This document shows positions 1-3,762 of a stretch of DNA of 49,003 bases, piece by piece. Source of the DNA: Nanobdellota archaeon (lineage in GTDB: Archaea; Nanobdellota; Nanobdellia; Woesearchaeales; SKGA01); assembly GCA_051819745.1 (NCBI GenBank), contig JBNJGO010000004.1:1-49003 (forward strand), in the 5' to 3' direction. A program made the position numbers and the translations under genes. Under the pieces are notes generated by a model. That model did no database searches. It saw only the letters and a list, made by a program, of their open reading frames with translations, and was not told the DNA's origin. The first letter of the stretch is position 1. Each line of letters opens with the position of its first letter.

Positions 1-201
1 TTACAATTTTCTTGGATGCTTTTCATCGCGGAAACAGTGTCAGGATCGATTGCCATAAAGAAAAGAAAAGAGAACTACTATATAAATATTATTTTTTTTT
101 ACTACTTTTAAGTTAAAATAATAGTTTTTTTTAAAACAAACAACAAAACCACCACCTAAAAATCAATAATTATTGAGAGAAAAAAACAACATAATTATTT
201 A

Positions 202-753
202 TTAATCCAACTGTTTGAAAAAAGTTTTTTTCAAAGGGAAACATAATTGTTTATTCCTGAGAACATCAACTTCATCCCAAATATATTTTGAAAATAAATC
301 AGATCTCAAATCAGAAATTAATTTCTCTACAACAGCATCATCAAAAAATCGTTTCATAAGTTCTTCAGCAACGATATGAACTGTTGCTTCTAATCTTATT
401 TCATTTATACTATTTTTAGATAAAAATAAATCATAAAAATTATTTTCAAAAAATATATTATGAGTTAATAAGCGAAAAAAATCAAAAAAAATTTTATTAT
501 TCTGTTGATTAACATTTAATAAATTAGGTCTCGATATCGAAGGATATGTACCTAAAATTAACCAAAAAGAATAAGAATTATTTTTAAAATTCAAACCAGA
601 CAGTTTATTCAAATTCGAAATTAAATCAGTTTGATATTTATTTACAAATTTATTTAGCACAAGCAATTTCGATTCAAAAAAAGTTTCATCAAATTTTAAG
701 TGTAAAAAACCATCCACTAAAGGAAAGGATGTTTCAAAAGTAATACTAATCAT
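202..753 (-). CDS. RiPP-cluster accessory protein; HExxH-degenerate paralog of 2696..3250 (family not recognised)
   Basis: ORF 202..762 starts at TTG. The first ATG, at 753, overlaps the stop of the SagB-like gene (ATGATTAG, 746-753). It is collinear by eye with the 184-aa ORF 2696..3250: ITFETSFPL/VTFQTSYYL, FWLILGTYPSISRPNLLNV/VWLFHGWQPSTSTPLLLNT, FFDFFRLL/FFNLVHEL, EIRLEATVHIV/YIELEAIVNTV. It has THNIF where the paralog has HELIH. A T7 run follows the stop on the coding strand. Confidence 0.6.
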   Translation of the reverse strand: MISITFETSFPLVDGFLHLKFDETFFESKLLVLNKFVNKYQTDLISNLNKLSGLNFKNNSYSFWLILGTYPSISRPNLLNVNQQNNKIFFDFFRLLTHNIFFENNFYDLFLSKNSINEIRLEATVHIVAEELMKRFFDDAVVEKLISDLRSDLFSKYIWDEVDVLRNKQLCFPLKKTFFKQLD

Positions 754-1480
754 ATTTCCCAATGACCCCCATATAAATTATTTTTTCATCATCCGGAAAA
801 TCTAAGAACTCATTTATCCCATCATCTGTGAAACCACCAATCGTACAACAACCTAAATTCAAATTTTCTGCAACTAAATACATGTTTTGAGCTAAATGAC
901 CTGCATCTAAATAAACATAACGAAAAGATCTAGCACCATATTTTATTTGGGCCCTGTCATAAGGACTTGAAATCATAATTAAAACAGCAGAATCCAGAAC
1001 CATATCTTGCGAGATAAATTTATTTAAGGTAGGTATTTTAATTTCTTTGATTAAAAGCTCTAAAGAATGAGATAAGACATCATAATGATAAATACCTGGT
1101 TCGACACCTACACAATTTTGTACAGCAACATATATTTCAATTGGAAATCTTGCTCCTGCTGAAGGATAAGCTCGTCTAGTATCATCTAATGACTTTACGG
1201 AATTTGAATTTGTAATTCCTGCTGAAAAAAATAACAAGGTTGATAATTCTTTAATTGTAATCGGTTTTTTATTAAATTCTCTACGAGATTTTCGTTTTAA
1301 TATCAGTTCGAATAAACTATCGCTTTTAATATTCGGTTCAGGTAAATTAATTTTTTTAAATCGAGGGTATGATTTAAAATAAATTTTAACCCAGGATTTA
1401 GGAGTAAATTTAGATGAAGCTCCATCTAGAGAAAAGATGTTTGTTTTTTCGTGTAATTCTTTAAATGTTGTCATTTTCAT
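746..1480 (-). CDS. SagB-type (nitroreductase-fold, FMN) dehydrogenase of azole RiPP pathways
   Basis: 244 aa. Nitroreductase/SagB-like motifs: KRKSRREF, RRAYPSAGARFPIEIYV, YLDAGHLAQNMYL, GCCTIGGF...DDEKIIYMGVIGK. The ATG overlaps the YcaO stop (ATGA at 1477-1480). Confidence 0.85.
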   Translation of the reverse strand: MKMTTFKELHEKTNIFSLDGASSKFTPKSWVKIYFKSYPRFKKINLPEPNIKSDSLFELILKRKSRREFNKKPITIKELSTLLFFSAGITNSNSVKSLDDTRRAYPSAGARFPIEIYVAVQNCVGVEPGIYHYDVLSHSLELLIKEIKIPTLNKFISQDMVLDSAVLIMISSPYDRAQIKYGARSFRYVYLDAGHLAQNMYLVAENLNLGCCTIGGFTDDGINEFLDFPDDEKIIYMGVIGKYD

Positions 1481-2703
1481 ACAAATGGATGTGGAATCTT
1501 ATTTAATTTTTGTTTTTTAATTCGAGGACCAAAAAAATATTTAAAATGTTCAAATAAATATAGTGGATGTAATTCAGGAATAATTGTTTTATATACAAAA
1601 AAACCAGCATTTCTTGTTTCTTTAGAGGTTAAATTTTTTGTAAAAACAGTAAAATTTTTTTCAGACAGTAAATTCAAAACATTTTTGAGATAATCAGATT
1701 TAGAAATTTTAATTTTTAAATTTTCAATCGATGTTTTTCGTGGAGTATAAAGAATAAAATCAAGATGTTTAATCATAGATGATGAAGACCAAAATAAACC
1801 TCTATCCTCAATAGAACTCATATTTTTTTCATCTTTAATTGATTTTCCTTCAATTAATTGGTATCTAATCCACAATCTAGTATGTTGTGCTTCAAGAATC
1901 GCCCCTTTTGTAGCTAACAAGACATCCCAATCAGTTTTAGTTCCTATAGAAATAGCAGGTCCAACACCACTCCTATCAACAAGCACACATAGAATTGTTG
2001 GAATTTTAATATCTGTTGTTATATCAAAAAAATAAGGTTCTAAAAAATATCGCTTCATTCGAGAAATTATCTCATTTAAATCAGAATCATTTATAGAATC
2101 AATGTTTATTTTAATAGGTGACCTTTTTTCCAAATAAGTTAACATAAATGAATCTCGTTCTATAAGTTCACAGATTCCTTTGTAAATTGCTTCTTCTTTG
2201 GTTGATGCGCACGCAGCACCATTACTTATTGGTAATCTTAATACTCTTTCTTTATTTGAATAAGGGACATAAATTAATTGCGAAGGTAAATAAATATCTT
2301 TATTATTTAATATATCAAAAACAGAAATCCAATTAAATTCTTCATCATGTAACTCTTGCTTCAAAGAATAAGTTATTTTTTGGTTATTAACAAAACGCAC
2401 AGGATCAATAGCATTATCCAATTGATTAAAATTTTTTTTAATACCTATTTCAAAATTTGAGGATAGTTCAAATCGCTCAATACATTCTCCCATTGCTTTA
2501 ATTTGTGCTTTGTTATCAGTTAAAGAAAGTCCAGAACCTTGATTATCATCATCTTTTATAAAATCAGGTAAACCATTCACATTCATAAACGCAGTATACT
2601 GAAAAAACTTAGGCTCATCTGTAAATTGAAATGATTTCTGAAGTGAAGAAATAATTTTATTTTGTTCAAGCATTGAACGCATTCTACTAAGCGTATTATC
2701 CAT
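1477..2703 (-). CDS. YcaO-family cyclodehydratase
   Basis: ORF 1477..2715 starts at TTG. The first ATG, at 2703, overlaps the upstream gene's stop (ATGGATAA, 2696-2703). YcaO hallmarks: GSGLSLTDNKAQIKAMGECIERF, SNGAACASTKEEAIYKGICELIERDSF, and a Pro-rich C-terminus (KIPHPFV). At about 408 aa it is a YcaO domain only, with no fused E1-like domain. Confidence 0.9.
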   Translation of the reverse strand: MDNTLSRMRSMLEQNKIISSLQKSFQFTDEPKFFQYTAFMNVNGLPDFIKDDDNQGSGLSLTDNKAQIKAMGECIERFELSSNFEIGIKKNFNQLDNAIDPVRFVNNQKITYSLKQELHDEEFNWISVFDILNNKDIYLPSQLIYVPYSNKERVLRLPISNGAACASTKEEAIYKGICELIERDSFMLTYLEKRSPIKINIDSINDSDLNEIISRMKRYFLEPYFFDITTDIKIPTILCVLVDRSGVGPAISIGTKTDWDVLLATKGAILEAQHTRLWIRYQLIEGKSIKDEKNMSSIEDRGLFWSSSSMIKHLDFILYTPRKTSIENLKIKISKSDYLKNVLNLLSEKNFTVFTKNLTSKETRNAGFFVYKTIIPELHPLYLFEHFKYFFGPRIKKQKLNKIPHPFV

Positions 2704-3250
2704 ATGTTTCACCAAACCATTTTGAAAAAGAAATATTTTTACGTTTAATGAGAGTATTTATTTCTCTCGTACGAATCCAAACATATTTATAAAAACCACC
2801 GAACTCAGCATGAAAAGATAATTCTTCAAGATCATCTTTGGAGAATATTTTTTTAAGAACTCGTATTAAAACCGTATTCACGATTGCTTCAAGTTCAATA
2901 TAATCCCATTCTCCAAGATTATTTTTAATTGGAATATACATAATATTTTGATGAATTAATTCATGAACAAGATTAAAAAAACAAAAATTTAACTGCTCAC
3001 CATAAGTGTTTAAGAGTAAAGGTGTTGAAGTACTTGGTTGCCATCCATGAAATAACCAAACATCAATTTTTTTAATAGGCCATCTCACACCCGTTTCTGT
3101 TTCAATTGCTTTTAACAAATAAGATTTATGTTTGAAAAATAAATTTTTCAATTTTTCTAAAAAAGCATTAAGTTTTTCTCTATTATAAGGAACACAAATT
3201 ATCTTTGATTGCAGATAATAACTTGTTTGAAAGGTTACTTTAACGACCAT
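2696..3250 (-). CDS. Putative HExxH metallopeptidase-like protein (RiPP-cluster accessory; family not recognised)
   Basis: 184 aa. ATG at 3250 is preceded by AGGT. HELIH (aa 96-100) is encoded at 2951-2965. It is a paralog of ORF 202..753 and lies between the precursor-like ORF and YcaO. Confidence 0.6.
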   Translation of the reverse strand: MVVKVTFQTSYYLQSKIICVPYNREKLNAFLEKLKNLFFKHKSYLLKAIETETGVRWPIKKIDVWLFHGWQPSTSTPLLLNTYGEQLNFCFFNLVHELIHQNIMYIPIKNNLGEWDYIELEAIVNTVLIRVLKKIFSKDDLEELSFHAEFGGFYKYVWIRTREINTLIKRKNISFSKWFGETYG

Positions 3251-3292
3251 ATTAATTACCTGAAAATAAATTAAATAAAAAAAAAAGAAAAA

Positions 3293-3493
3293 TCAATCCA
3301 CTTTTGATTCGAGCATATCTTCGGTAACTTTACAACCATAACAGCCACCACCACAAGAACGACAACCAGAACATTTTGATGCATTCGAAACAGCATCATA
3401 TGGTTTTAGAGGACTTTCTTTCATTGAATCGGTATCCAATTTGTAAGATAAATTTGGCTTATAAGAGTTTTTTAAAGTATAAACTCCATTCAT
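3293..3493 (-). CDS. Candidate RiPP precursor peptide (Cys-rich core CSGCRSCGGGCYGC)
   Basis: 66 aa. The ATG is preceded by GGGGG 7-11 nt upstream and by an AT-rich TATA-like tract. The N-terminal ~40 aa are leader-like with no Cys. The core has five Cys at aa 41-54 (nt 3332-3373) interleaved with Gly/Ser, followed by an acidic tail VTEDMLESKVD. It lies immediately 5' of the modification genes. Confidence 0.65.
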   Translation of the reverse strand: MNGVYTLKNSYKPNLSYKLDTDSMKESPLKPYDAVSNASKCSGCRSCGGGCYGCKVTEDMLESKVD

Positions 3494-3762
3494 TTTAAAA
3501 CCCCCGACGGAAACCCATCAAAGTAAATTTTAATTATAATATATTTAAATCTTTGGTTGATTTTTGGAAATAAAATTTAAAATTAAAAAACTTAAGAACC
3601 AATCAAAAACAATAAATAATTATTATTTCTTATTCATAAAATTTTTTTAATGTATATTTATCATAATTCATCATAAATAAAACAAGACATAAGAATATAA
3701 GCAATACAAAAATAAAAATAAAAAAATAAACCAATCTTAAAAAACAGCATCTAATCAGTCAG

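What the first reader, a model, noticed from the sequence alone, without database searches (positions are those of the whole stretch)
202..3493. Compact YcaO/SagB azole-RiPP (TOMM-like) operon in a small-genome archaeal context, with no recognisable E1-like partner
Five co-directional minus-strand genes are translationally coupled through overlapping start/stop codons: ATGGATAA at 2696-2703, ATGA at 1477-1480 and ATGATTAG at 746-753. In order they are a 66-aa Cys-rich peptide, a 184-aa HExxH protein, a YcaO, a SagB-type dehydrogenase and a 183-aa paralog of the HExxH protein.

A YcaO cyclodehydratase plus an FMN SagB-type dehydrogenase next to a small Cys/Ser-rich ORF is the established signature of thiazole/oxazole-modified peptide biosynthesis. 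Three things are unusual here:
1. The YcaO (about 408 aa) is domain-only, and I see no E1-like 'C protein', Ocin-ThiF-like protein or other RRE-bearing partner. Azoline-forming YcaOs normally need one.
2. The positions where such a partner would sit are filled by two paralogous proteins of about 185 aa that I cannot assign to any family.
3. There is no transporter or immunity gene in the visible flank. CDC48 lies on one side and the window ends 200 nt beyond the other.

The surrounding genome looks like a reduced, probably symbiotic archaeon, where RiPP chemistry is poorly explored.
Basis: partly seen in the sequence, partly recalled or inferred. Interest (0 to 1): 0.88.

Follow-up and report, generated by a model that had tools for sequence, protein, structure and literature searches.

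The report
Archaeal azole-peptide operon lacking E1 partner
A small archaeal (Woesearchaeota-like) operon has what it needs to turn the cysteines of a short peptide into thiazole rings but lacks the helper protein such enzymes normally need, and it carries a previously unnamed pair of mini metalloprotease-like proteins, one apparently active and one inactive.

Summary
Five co-directional minus-strand genes (202-3493), three junctions with overlapping stop/start codons, encode a 66-aa precursor (core CSGCRSCGGGCYGC), a 184-aa HExxH protein (P2), a SagD-family YcaO, a SagB-family dehydrogenase and a 183-aa paralog of P2 (P5). The five-gene order and the precursor recur in at least six diverged metagenomic lineages. 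The nearest named relatives are Woesearchaeota MAGs.

What is new here:
1. P2 and P5 are not cryptic E1-like/RRE proteins. AlphaFold models (pLDDT 93 and 88), Foldseek and motif statistics place them in an unnamed zincin (gluzincin-like) family. P2 keeps HExxH plus a downstream Glu. Every P5 has lost the catalytic Glu.
2. Sister cassettes (L024, L026) have the same architecture plus a genuine TOMM C protein (ThiF/E1-like) between P2 and YcaO. So the pair is an accessory module, not a positional replacement.
3. No ThiF-like ORF exists in the 49-kb window or in any C-less relative.

Best reading: a linear azole peptide operon in which the YcaO works without an E1-like partner. P2 is probably the maturation peptidase and P5 its non-catalytic partner. 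Whether P2/P5 took over leader recognition is open. This is a new variant of a known kind.

The parts
3531..3550 (-). AT-rich TATA-like element (TTTAAATATATTATAATTA) about 40-55 nt upstream of the precursor ATG; putative archaeal promoter
   Evidence: Read from the sequence. L001 has a similar TTTATATA element and the same GGGGGT Shine-Dalgarno-like run before its precursor ATG. Inference only.
3293..3493 (-). Precursor peptide gene (66 aa). Leader is residues 1-40 with motif K-E-S-P-L. Core is C41-C54, CSGCRSCGGGCYGC (nt 3332-3373). Acidic tail is KVTEDMLESKVD (nt 3296-3331).
   Evidence: Orthologous small ORFs lie upstream of P2 in L001, L005, L007, L013, L014, L022, L023, L024 and L026. Core pS >> pN.
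3251..3292 (-). 42-nt T-rich spacer (T5-C-T10...) between precursor and P2; possible partial terminator/attenuator, followed by an AGGT SD-like element
   Evidence: T-runs of 6 or more are present in 5 of 8 C-less loci, but the genomes are AT-rich, so this is weak evidence.
2696..3250 (-). P2: 184-aa zincin-like protein with HELIH (nt 2951-2965), E119 and E121 on the following helix. Predicted active metallopeptidase.
   Evidence: No Pfam, NCBIfam or PDB sequence hit. AF2 pLDDT 93.3. Foldseek top 50 are essentially all M1-type gluzincin catalytic domains, including the lanthipeptide leader peptidase EryP, plus one M30 (best E=0.027, prob 0.98). Family-wide, HExxH occurs in 88/110 members and position 121 is E/H/D in 105/110. 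Distant members give sub-threshold SprT-like/WLM hits.
1477..2703 (-). YcaO cyclodehydratase, SagD family, 408 aa, domain-only, C-terminus PHPFV
   Evidence: PF02624 E=1.9e-48; TIGR03604 194.6 bits. The ExxER and ELIERD motifs align with MJ1094, LynD, TruD and MusD. Clade members L007 and L014 pass the curated cut-off.
746..1480 (-). SagB-family FMN dehydrogenase (244 aa) with the conserved K-Y pair (QIKYG)
   Evidence: TIGR03605 146.6 bits vs cut-off 78.4; PF00881 E=3.6e-25. KY is conserved in all orthologs. KY is catalytic in McbC according to PMC8442711.
202..753 (-). P5: 183-aa paralog of P2 with the same predicted fold. Its active-site motif has degenerated to RLLTH (first His and catalytic Glu lost; H and E of the LEA motif kept). 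Predicted pseudo-peptidase.
   Evidence: BLASTP vs P2 E=2e-10. AF2 pLDDT 88.3 with the same topology. The catalytic Glu is absent in every P5-clade member examined.
150..201 (-). T-rich region after the P5 stop codon; probable end of the operon. A separate gene starts at about nt 55 and runs off the window.
   Evidence: sequence reading only.

Best explanation
This is a functional, self-contained five-gene linear azole peptide (TOMM/LAP-type) operon of a Woesearchaeota-like DPANN archaeon.

Proposed steps:
1. The 66-aa precursor is bound through its leader motif ([I/V/M][E/D][S/D]P[L/I], about 12 residues before the first Cys) and/or its conserved acidic C-terminal tail.
2. The SagD-family YcaO uses ATP to cyclodehydrate the five Cys of CSGCRSCGGGCYGC (possibly also Ser) to azolines.
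3. The SagB-family FMN dehydrogenase oxidises them to azoles.
4. P2, a ~184-aa zincin-like HExxH...E metallopeptidase of an unnamed family, trims the leader and/or tail. It probably works as a heterodimer with its catalytically dead paralog P5, which would contribute substrate binding or regulation.

The canonical E1-like (C) partner really is missing from this clade. Orthologous sister cassettes still have it, so here the YcaO most likely recognises its substrate without an E1-like/RRE protein, as the bottromycin YcaOs do.

Shown: gene content, family memberships, conservation of synteny and precursor, the zincin-like fold and motifs, absence of a ThiF-like ORF locally, and presence of a C protein in sister cassettes.

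Inferred: the chemistry (azoles), proteolysis by P2, a P2/P5 heterodimer, partner independence of the YcaO, and the direction of change (loss of C).
For: - YcaO and SagB family hits, with ATP/Mg motifs aligned to solved YcaOs.
- The KY pair in SagB and the Pro-containing C-terminus PHPFV are conserved in all orthologs. Their significance follows PMC8442711.
- The five-gene synteny and precursor are conserved across at least six lineages in differing neighbourhoods.
- The precursor core is under purifying selection.
- P2 and P5 have confident AF2 models with zincin topology. Foldseek hits are consistently zincins: M1-type, EryP, SprT-like, M61.
- The motif pattern is HExxH plus E/H/D across 110 family members. 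Sub-threshold SprT-like/WLM Pfam hits recur.
- P5 lacks the catalytic Glu in every lineage but stays intact. dN/dS between L001 and L009 is 0.27 for P5 and 0.16 for P2.
- L024 and L026 cassettes contain the pair plus a C protein that passes TIGR03882's cut-off.
- There is no ThiF-like ORF in the window or the C-less loci.
- Scores against the SagD model fall stepwise from the C-containing YcaO (278.6) to the C-less ones (224.6 down to 183.1).
- Bottromycin YcaOs act without a partner (PMC8442711).
- Heterodimeric metalloproteases are established RiPP leader peptidases: TldD/E (one active and one inactive paralog), and also PttP1/P2 (PMC5810440 and PMC10885120).
Against: - No biochemical data exist.
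- Foldseek E-values are not significant on their own (best 0.027 for P2, about 1 for P5), and the MSAs behind the models hold only 12 sequences.
- The window's YcaO falls below the curated SagD cut-off.
- The C-terminus is PHPFV, not a full PxPxP.
- A trans-encoded E1-like partner cannot be excluded from a 49-kb window.
- No exporter or immunity gene is visible.
- P2-P5 pairs also exist without YcaO, SagB or a precursor (L009/L010/L011 and L027). The pair therefore need not be dedicated to this peptide.
- The direction of C loss versus gain is not resolved by the tree. It shows two sister groups, and bootstrap values are 55-79%.
Confidence: 0.55

Rival explanations
1. P2/P5, especially the dead paralog P5, have taken over the job of the lost E1-like protein. 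They would bind the leader or tail as an added beta-strand on the zincin sheet, present it to the YcaO and perhaps activate it. That would make them a new, protease-derived type of YcaO partner.
For: - The four genes are tightly translationally coupled, and their order is strictly conserved.
- P5 is retained without catalytic residues in all lineages.
- The leader motif I(E/D)(D/E/S)P(I/L/F) is shared by C-containing (L026) and C-less precursors. It is therefore probably read by a component common to both.
- The YcaO shows no compensating extra domain.
Against: - The pair coexists with a genuine C protein in L024 and L026, so partner replacement is not its ancestral role.
- P2 keeps a complete catalytic motif.
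- Stand-alone pairs and singleton family members occur away from any YcaO.
Confidence: 0.2
2. An E1-like/RRE partner is encoded elsewhere in the genome and acts in trans. The operon would then be mechanistically a conventional TOMM.
For: Only 49 kb of the genome is visible. RiPP accessory proteins are sometimes encoded outside the cluster, as with TldD/E and AplP-like proteases (PMC10885120).
Against: - No ThiF-like ORF is found in the window or in any of about 15 related contigs of up to 16 kb (precomputed Pfam lists).
- In the sister cassettes the C gene sits inside the operon.
- Flanking genes differ in every lineage, so the conserved unit is the five genes alone.
- The genomes appear reduced.
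Confidence: 0.12
3. P2/P5 are a self-protection (immunity) module or a general protease pair, rather than the maturation protease. The pair-only loci would then be orphan immunity loci.
For: Intact P2-P5 pairs without precursor, YcaO or SagB occur in two unrelated lineages (L009/L010/L011 and L027). No other immunity gene is visible in the operon.
Against: - L009, L010 and L011 encode identical proteins, so they are one population.
- Their deletion junction lies in ATG-overlap microhomology, which preserves both frames by construction.
- L027 is only a 1.6-kb contig.
- Protease-based immunity is unusual for azole peptides (my own knowledge, not tested here).
Confidence: 0.1
4. P2 is not a hydrolase but an Fe/alpha-ketoglutarate-dependent HExxH oxygenase that hydroxylates the peptide or oxidatively removes its C-terminal tail, like PflC/PosC.
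For: Zincin-fold HExxH proteins in RiPP clusters can be alpha-KG hydroxylases that also cut off a conserved C-terminal tetrapeptide (PMC12636437). This precursor has a strongly conserved C-terminal tail.
Against: - P2 gives no NCBIfam or Pfam hit of any kind, so none to a curated HExxH-domain model, even at E<=1.
- At 184 aa, P2 appears to be little more than a minimal zincin catalytic domain (secondary-structure layout).
- Woesearchaeota are generally regarded as anaerobes (my own knowledge), which argues against O2-dependent chemistry.
Confidence: 0.05
5. The C-less cassette is a decaying, non-functional remnant after loss of the essential partner.
For: The window's YcaO scores below the SagD cut-off. 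One relative (L022) has a stop codon inside SagB. One lineage has deleted the peptide, YcaO and SagB.
Against: All five ORFs are intact in at least six lineages that have diverged to 39-69% identity. The peptide core is under strong purifying selection. The catalytic motifs of YcaO, SagB and P2 are retained.
Confidence: 0.05

Closest known systems
Canonical TOMM/LAP synthetases (SagBCD, McbBCD, BalhBCD; archaeal thermoacidophisin and haloazolisin clusters)
   Same: A SagD-family YcaO, a SagB-family FMN dehydrogenase with the KY pair, and an adjacent precursor with a Cys-rich core and Gly before several Cys. Archaeal TOMM families are already known (PMC4603692).
   Different: There is no E1-like/Ocin-ThiF C protein or fused C domain. 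There is no CaaX or TldD/E protease and no ABC transporter. Two ~184-aa zincin-like paralogs flank the D and B genes. The host is a DPANN archaeon.
Sister cassette in metagenomic contigs L024/L025 and L026
   Same: It is orthologous: precursor, P2-like (HELAH), YcaO (37% identical), SagB (40%) and P5-like (RMLIH), all tightly coupled.
   Different: It has a 330-aa ThiF-family protein between P2 and YcaO that passes the cut-off of TIGR03882, 'TOMM precursor leader peptide-binding protein'. Its precursor tail is shorter (7-9 aa vs 10-15 aa).
Bottromycin YcaOs (BotC/BotCD type)
   Same: They are YcaOs that form a thiazoline or an amidine without any partner protein (PMC8442711). The substrate carries a C-terminal recognition ('follower') sequence (PMC4603692). 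Here the C-terminal tail is the best-conserved part of the precursor outside the Cys core.
   Different: They are bacterial and modify a single Cys, and the window's YcaO matched only SagD-type and YcaO-domain curated models. Here at least five Cys and a SagB-family dehydrogenase are involved.
TldD/TldE (M103) and PttP1/PttP2 (M16) heterodimeric RiPP leader metalloproteases
   Same: TldD/E is a pair of paralogous subunits, one with the metal-binding catalytic motif and one without, that removes the leader from an azole peptide, microcin B17 (PMC5810440; PMC10885120). PttP1/PttP2 is likewise a two-protein RiPP leader metalloprotease complex.
   Different: The folds and sizes are unrelated (about 450-480 aa, from my own knowledge, vs 184 aa). 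TldD/E is usually encoded outside the cluster. Formation of a P2/P5 heterodimer is only inferred.
M1-family RiPP leader peptidases (AplP, EryP) and minimal zincins (minigluzincin proabylysin, SprT-like/WLM)
   Same: An HExxH helix followed by a Glu-bearing helix. Foldseek's best matches are M1 catalytic domains, including EryP. The weak profile match to proabylysin covers the 'P..LN...LIHELxH' segment.
   Different: No significant sequence match to any curated family. P2 is about 184 aa and appears to have no accessory domains. The spacing is HExxH-x20-E (E121), with an extra P2-specific E119 at x18.

Membership tests
TOMM / linear azole peptide (LAP) biosynthetic cluster | YcaO-domain cyclodehydratase of the SagD family | tested here: met
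   PF02624 E=1.9e-48. TIGR03604 matches end to end at 194.6 bits, below the cut-off of 219.25 for the window. Orthologs L007 and L014 score 224.6 and 223.8, and L024 scores 278.6, all above it.
TOMM / linear azole peptide (LAP) biosynthetic cluster | Conserved ATP/Mg-binding acidic motifs of YcaO | tested here: met
   The ECIER and ELIERD segments align with the corresponding motifs of MJ1094, MusD, TruD and LynD.
TOMM / linear azole peptide (LAP) biosynthetic cluster | Proline-rich C-terminus (PxPxP) typical of azoline-forming YcaOs | tested here: inconclusive
   All orthologs end in PHPF(V/L), which has two of the three prolines. The significance of the feature follows PMC8442711.
TOMM / linear azole peptide (LAP) biosynthetic cluster | E1-like (C) or Ocin-ThiF-like (F) partner with an RRE, separate or fused | tested here: not met
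   - No ThiF, SagC or TIGR03882 hit among the five proteins.
- The YcaO is domain-only.
- P2 and P5 have a zincin fold, not E1/RRE.
- phmmer with the L024 C protein finds nothing in the window or the C-less loci.
- The rest of the genome could not be tested.
TOMM / linear azole peptide (LAP) biosynthetic cluster | SagB-family FMN-dependent azoline dehydrogenase | tested here: met
   TIGR03605 scores 146.6 bits against a cut-off of 78.4. The K-Y pair is conserved in all orthologs.
TOMM / linear azole peptide (LAP) biosynthetic cluster | Adjacent precursor with a leader and a Cys/Ser/Thr-rich core | tested here: met
   A 66-aa ORF with core CSGCRSCGGGCYGC. It is conserved upstream of P2 in all YcaO-containing relatives and is under purifying selection.
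TOMM / linear azole peptide (LAP) biosynthetic cluster | Azol(in)e heterocycles actually installed on the peptide | not testable with these tools
   This needs expression and mass spectrometry (-18 or -20 Da per Cys).
Zincin (gluzincin-like) metallopeptidases - P2 | HExxH on one helix plus a third ligand (Glu) on the following helix | tested here: met
   HELIH at residues 96-100. E121 is invariant in the P2/P5 clade, and that position is E/H/D in 105/110 family members. The predicted helices span residues 87-102 and 117-132.
Zincin (gluzincin-like) metallopeptidases - P2 | Zincin catalytic-domain fold | tested here: inconclusive
   The Foldseek PDB top 50 are essentially all M1-type zincin catalytic domains plus one M30, but the best E is 0.027 (prob 0.98, TM 0.42-0.53). 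Named hits in the viral library are also zincins, with E of at least 0.06.
Zincin (gluzincin-like) metallopeptidases - P2 | Membership of a curated peptidase family by sequence | tested here: not met
   No Pfam, NCBIfam or PDB sequence hit. Only distant relatives give sub-threshold SprT-like/WLM hits.
Zincin (gluzincin-like) metallopeptidases - P5 | Catalytic Glu of HExxH | tested here: not met
   The motif reads RLLTH in the window. In all P5-clade sequences the Glu is replaced by L, M or I.
alpha-KG-dependent HExxH RiPP hydroxylases (IPR026337 type) | Sequence match to the curated HExxH-domain family | tested here: not met
   No NCBIfam or Pfam hit for P2 at E<=1. The family is described in PMC12636437.
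Partner-independent ('standalone') azoline-forming YcaO, bottromycin type | Catalysis without any partner protein | not testable with these tools
   Only the local absence of an E1-like gene is shown. Activity must be measured.

The most novel reading that the evidence does not exclude
After losing its E1-like/RRE partner, this archaeal TOMM lineage either evolved a YcaO that processes several Cys without any partner, or re-used a protease-derived pair (active P2 plus pseudo-protease P5) as the leader/follower-binding and activating subunit. The second case would be a third, structurally unrelated class of YcaO partner, alongside E1-like/Ocin-ThiF and TfuA. The natural pair of orthologous cassettes with and without the C protein (L024 vs the window) would make the basis of partner dependence directly testable.
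Probability: 0.22. Interest if true: 0.85.

Novelty: new variant of a known kind. Interest (0 to 1): 0.62.

Why it matters
Azoline-forming YcaOs of the SagD type are thought to depend on an E1-like or Ocin-ThiF partner for substrate recognition and activation. This lineage keeps the precursor, cyclodehydratase and dehydrogenase under selection without that partner, while orthologous sister cassettes still have it. That gives a natural with/without comparison for asking what makes a YcaO partner-dependent.

It also defines an unnamed family of ~190-aa zincin-like proteins (226 representative clusters at E<=0.001). An active/inactive paralog pair from this family is built into these archaeal azole-peptide cassettes, making it a candidate new class of RiPP peptidase.

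Finally, it documents RiPP chemistry in Woesearchaeota-like DPANN archaea, for which I found no specific description in the searchable literature.

Tried and rejected
1. Cryptic E1-like/RRE identity of P2/P5 (the AmiB precedent in PMC8442711). Rejected: both fold confidently as zincin-like domains, and no RRE or E1 protein appears among the Foldseek hits.
2. Predicting a peptide-P2-P5 complex from a Gly-Ser-linked, paired alignment.
3. Using the pair-only loci as proof that P2/P5 act independently of the YcaO. This was downgraded:
   - L009, L010 and L011 encode identical proteins, so they are one population.
   - The YcaO-SagB deletion lies between two ATG-overlap junctions, so both frames survive automatically.
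   - L027 is an independent case, but the contig is only 1.6 kb.
4. Assuming the wider HExxH family is always YcaO-linked. Rejected: P0161, P0162 and P0167 sit among unrelated genes.
5. Searching genome contigs with the 110-sequence alignment failed because it had no conserved stretch. The 12-sequence alignment found one Woesearchaeota MAG and five metagenome loci.
6. A link to the MopE-like copper-binding neighbour. It is lineage-specific (L001 and L009 only), so I dropped it.
7. The core as a ferredoxin-like Cx2Cx2Cx3C metal site. Cys number (5-10) and spacing vary between lineages, so a fixed cluster-binding motif is unlikely.
8. A T-run attenuator after the precursor. It is present in only 5 of 8 C-less loci, in AT-rich DNA, so it is unconvincing.
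9. Direction of C loss from the phylogeny. The NJ tree places C-containing lineages basally. But the sequences of known context resolve into just two sister groups with 55-96% bootstrap support, so loss versus gain rests on outside parsimony, not on the tree.

Full report
OBSERVATION.
- precursor 3293-3493 (66 aa)
- P2 2696-3250 (184 aa)
- YcaO 1477-2703 (408 aa from the ATG)
- SagB 746-1480 (244 aa)
- P5 202-753 (183 aa from the ATG)

The overlaps ATGGATAA (2696-2703), ATGA (1477-1480) and ATGATTAG (746-753) read directly from the sequence. The precursor is separated from P2 by a 42-nt T-rich spacer. None of the four larger proteins has a membrane-spanning segment.

FAMILY ASSIGNMENTS.
- The YcaO matches Pfam PF02624 (E=1.9e-48). 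It matches the SagD-family model TIGR03604 end to end at 194.6 bits, below the curated cut-off of 219.25.
- Its two acidic ATP/Mg motifs (ECIER, ELIERD) align with those of the solved YcaOs MJ1094, MusD, TruD and LynD.
- At 408 aa it leaves no room for a fused E1-like domain.
- The dehydrogenase passes the SagB-family cut-off (TIGR03605, 146.6 vs 78.4 bits). It keeps the K-Y pair, which is catalytic in McbC (PMC8442711).
- All orthologous YcaOs end in PHPF(V/L), a partial version of the proline-rich C-terminus typical of azoline-forming YcaOs (PMC8442711).

THE LOCUS IS REAL AND CONSERVED. P2 has only nine cluster-level relatives in the indexed 5.8-billion-protein collection, and P5 has three. 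Their contigs show the same order: small ORF, P2, YcaO, nitroreductase, P5. This holds in L001/L002, L003-L006, L007/L008, L013, L014/L015, L022 and L023, and the flanking genes differ in each lineage. So the five genes are the conserved unit.

The small ORFs share three features:
- a leader motif [I/V/M/F][E/D/S][D/S/N]P[L/I] about 12 residues before the first Cys
- a core of 5-10 Cys, mostly at CxxC spacing
- an acidic tail, LE(A/S)K(L/V)(D/N)

In the closest lineages the core and tail, CSGCxSCGGGCYGCK(V/I)T(E/D)DMLE(A/S)K, are nearly invariant while synonymous sites are close to saturated (pS 0.30-0.64 vs pN 0.02-0.10). It is therefore a translated, selected gene.

The named relatives are Woesearchaeota MAGs. 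The window's other genes are archaeal housekeeping genes: CDC48, MCM, PGK, LeuRS, PEP synthase and a presenilin-type SPP. The operon's GC is 27% against 35% for the rest of the window.

WHAT P2 AND P5 ARE. They are paralogs (27% identity, E=2e-10) with no Pfam, NCBIfam or PDB sequence match.
- AlphaFold2 gives confident models: P2 pLDDT 93.3 and pTM 0.90, P5 pLDDT 88.3. Both have the same layout: a three-stranded sheet, a long backing helix, a helix carrying HExxH, and a following helix carrying a conserved Glu.
- Foldseek against the PDB returns, for P2, essentially only catalytic domains of M1-type gluzincins (IRAP, ERAP1/2, aminopeptidase N, the lanthipeptide leader peptidase EryP) and one M30 enzyme. 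The best E is 0.027, prob 0.98, TM 0.42-0.53. P5 gives the same family, not significantly. The named hits in the viral library are again zincins.
- An exhaustive profile search finds 226 representative clusters (E<=0.001), almost all 160-215 aa.
- In a 110-member alignment, HExxH is present in 88 members. The position equivalent to E121 is Glu, His or Asp in 105. That is the pattern of a metal site.
- Distant members give recurrent sub-threshold SprT-like/WLM hits. The family profile touches the minigluzincin proabylysin over the 'P..LN...LIHELxH' segment, but not significantly (E=0.28).

I conclude that P2 and P5 belong to an unnamed zincin-like family. Every P2 keeps HExxH and E121. Every P5 has lost the general-base Glu (RLLTH, CLLTH, HMLIH, HMMVH, RMLIH and others) but keeps E121. 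P5 is therefore a conserved pseudo-enzyme.

THE DECISIVE COMPARISON. A more distant P2-like protein (P0030) lies in a cassette with this order: 70-aa Cys-rich precursor, P2-like (HELAH), a 330-aa ThiF-family protein, YcaO, nitroreductase, P5-like (RMLIH) (L024/L025).
- Its YcaO is 37% and its SagB 40% identical to the window's.
- The ThiF protein passes the curated cut-off of TIGR03882, 'TOMM precursor leader peptide-binding protein' (41.0 vs 36.9 bits), and hits the SagC family.
- L026 repeats the pattern as far as the contig reaches.

So the zincin pair coexists with a canonical C protein, and it is not a positional stand-in for one. The window's clade is the same cassette without the C gene. 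phmmer with the L024 C protein finds nothing among all ORFs of 60 aa or more in the window and in the C-less loci.

Scores against the SagD model fall stepwise. The C-containing YcaO scores 278.6. The C-less ones score 224.6, 223.8, 201.6, 194.6 (window), 185.3 and 183.1.

In a neighbour-joining tree, P2 and P5 together separate from singleton family members in 200/200 bootstraps. The C-containing P2s group together (191/200), and the C-less P2s plus L027 group together (158/200). Among sequences of known context this is a two-group split, so it does not by itself show whether C was lost or gained. I favour loss because SagD-family YcaOs are canonically C-dependent and the C-containing YcaO is the more canonical one. 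That is an inference.

MECHANISM I COMMIT TO (confidence about 0.55 overall).
1. The precursor is modified by the YcaO (ATP-dependent cyclodehydration of the five Cys) and then by SagB (oxidation to thiazoles).
2. P2 is the zinc peptidase that removes the leader and/or the acidic tail, working with P5 as a non-catalytic partner.
3. The YcaO recognises its substrate without an E1-like/RRE protein.

Precedents:
- Partner-free bottromycin YcaOs (PMC8442711), whose substrate carries a C-terminal recognition sequence (PMC4603692).
- Heterodimeric metalloproteases that process RiPP leaders, namely TldD/E (one active and one inactive paralog) and PttP1/P2 (PMC5810440, PMC10885120).

The C-less precursors have longer, better-conserved tails (10-15 aa) than the two C-containing ones (7-9 aa). 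That fits a shift to C-terminal recognition, but with only two C-containing examples it is no more than a hint.

RIVALS.
(a) P2/P5 took over the partner role (0.20).
   - For: tight coupling, strict order, a conserved dead paralog, and a leader motif shared with C-containing cassettes.
   - Against: coexistence with a C protein, and family members that occur away from any YcaO.
(b) A trans-encoded partner (0.12). This cannot be tested from 49 kb.
(c) An immunity or general protease pair (0.10). It is suggested by pair-only loci: L009/L010/L011 (one population, with a frame-preserving microhomology deletion) and the independent L027.
(d) An Fe/alpha-KG HExxH oxygenase like PflC/PosC (0.05; PMC12636437). 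P2 matches no curated protein-family model at all.
(e) A decaying remnant (0.05). This is contradicted by intact ORFs and purifying selection.

COMPARISON AND NOVELTY. By content this is a TOMM/LAP-type cluster. It fails one defining feature of the canonical system, the E1-like/Ocin-ThiF partner. So I describe it as working like a TOMM and file it as a new variant, not a standard member.
- Archaeal TOMMs are already known: haloazolisins and thermoacidophisins, all with a C protein or C domain (PMC4603692).
- Partner-free azoline formation is known from bottromycin.
- New here are the C-less SagD-type cassette with a C-containing ortholog for comparison, the unnamed zincin family with its active/dead pair embedded in these cassettes, and the DPANN host.

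LIMITS.
- There is no biochemistry.
- The structure models rest on 12-sequence alignments.
- Fold matches are consistent but individually non-significant.
- Only 49 kb of the genome is visible.
- The tree is NJ with moderate support.
- No complex prediction was possible.

Noticed in passing
L009:5548-10552 (NCBI GCA_964409805.1, Woesearchaeota MAG); L010; L011 (JBKHAG010000006.1): A close relative of L001 has the MopE-like gene followed by P2 and P5 only. The precursor, YcaO and SagB are all deleted, and P2 and P5 overlap by 8 nt. The three assemblies encode identical proteins, so they are one population. The deletion junction lies in the shared ATG-overlap microhomology.
   Followed up: yes
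L027:203-1357 (ENA ERZ27248349 k141_638566, 1.6 kb): A second, divergent stand-alone pair: P2-like (HELIH), a 28-nt gap, then P5-like (RLLVE). There is no precursor, YcaO or SagB on the contig. The pair may exist as an independent two-gene module.
   Followed up: partly
window 202-3493 vs the rest of the window: The operon's GC is 27.1% against 35.0% for the rest of the window (P5 only 22.8%). The cassette also sits in a different neighbourhood in every lineage. It may be a horizontally mobile cassette. No mobility genes were seen, but the window ends 200 nt beyond the operon.
   Followed up: partly
L022:1934-2254: The SagB ortholog has an in-frame stop after 80 codons near the contig end. This could be a pseudogene or an assembly or sequencing error.
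   Followed up: no
P0038 (433 aa) compared with L014:7630-8184: Over most of its first ~120 residues this representative matches the L014 P5-like protein almost exactly. It then continues as a phosphoglucomutase/phosphomannomutase-like sequence (my reading of the sequence). This is probably a chimeric contig or a rearrangement.
   Followed up: no
window 3251-3292: A T5-C-T10 run lies directly after the precursor stop codon and before P2. It could act as a partial archaeal terminator that raises the peptide:enzyme transcript ratio. Similar runs occur in 5 of 8 C-less loci, but the DNA is AT-rich.
   Followed up: partly
window 1-55 (minus strand): A separate gene starts at about nt 55 (MAIDPDTVSAMKSIQENC...), behind its own TATA-like element, and runs off the window end. 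Its identity is unknown.
   Followed up: no
L001:89-3952 and L009:5548-9417: A ~1290-aa protein with Cu-binding MopE-like repeats lies directly upstream of the cassette in one lineage only. It is not conserved elsewhere, so it is probably unrelated to the operon.
   Followed up: partly
L019:279-5480: A distant singleton member of the HExxH family (P0167) lies 3.6 kb from a weak ATP-grasp MvdD-like (graspetide-type) gene. This may be coincidence.
   Followed up: no
window 3332-3373 (precursor core): The first four Cys have the spacing Cx2Cx2Cx3C, the same as the classical 4Fe-4S ferredoxin motif (my own knowledge). Spacing and Cys number are not conserved in other lineages.
   Followed up: partly
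outgroup family members P0057, P0098, P0161, P0162, P0167: Singleton members of the ~190-aa family carry HELIH plus a His, not a Glu, at the position of E121. This suggests a His-His-His type metal site in the ancestral, non-YcaO-linked branch.
   Followed up: no
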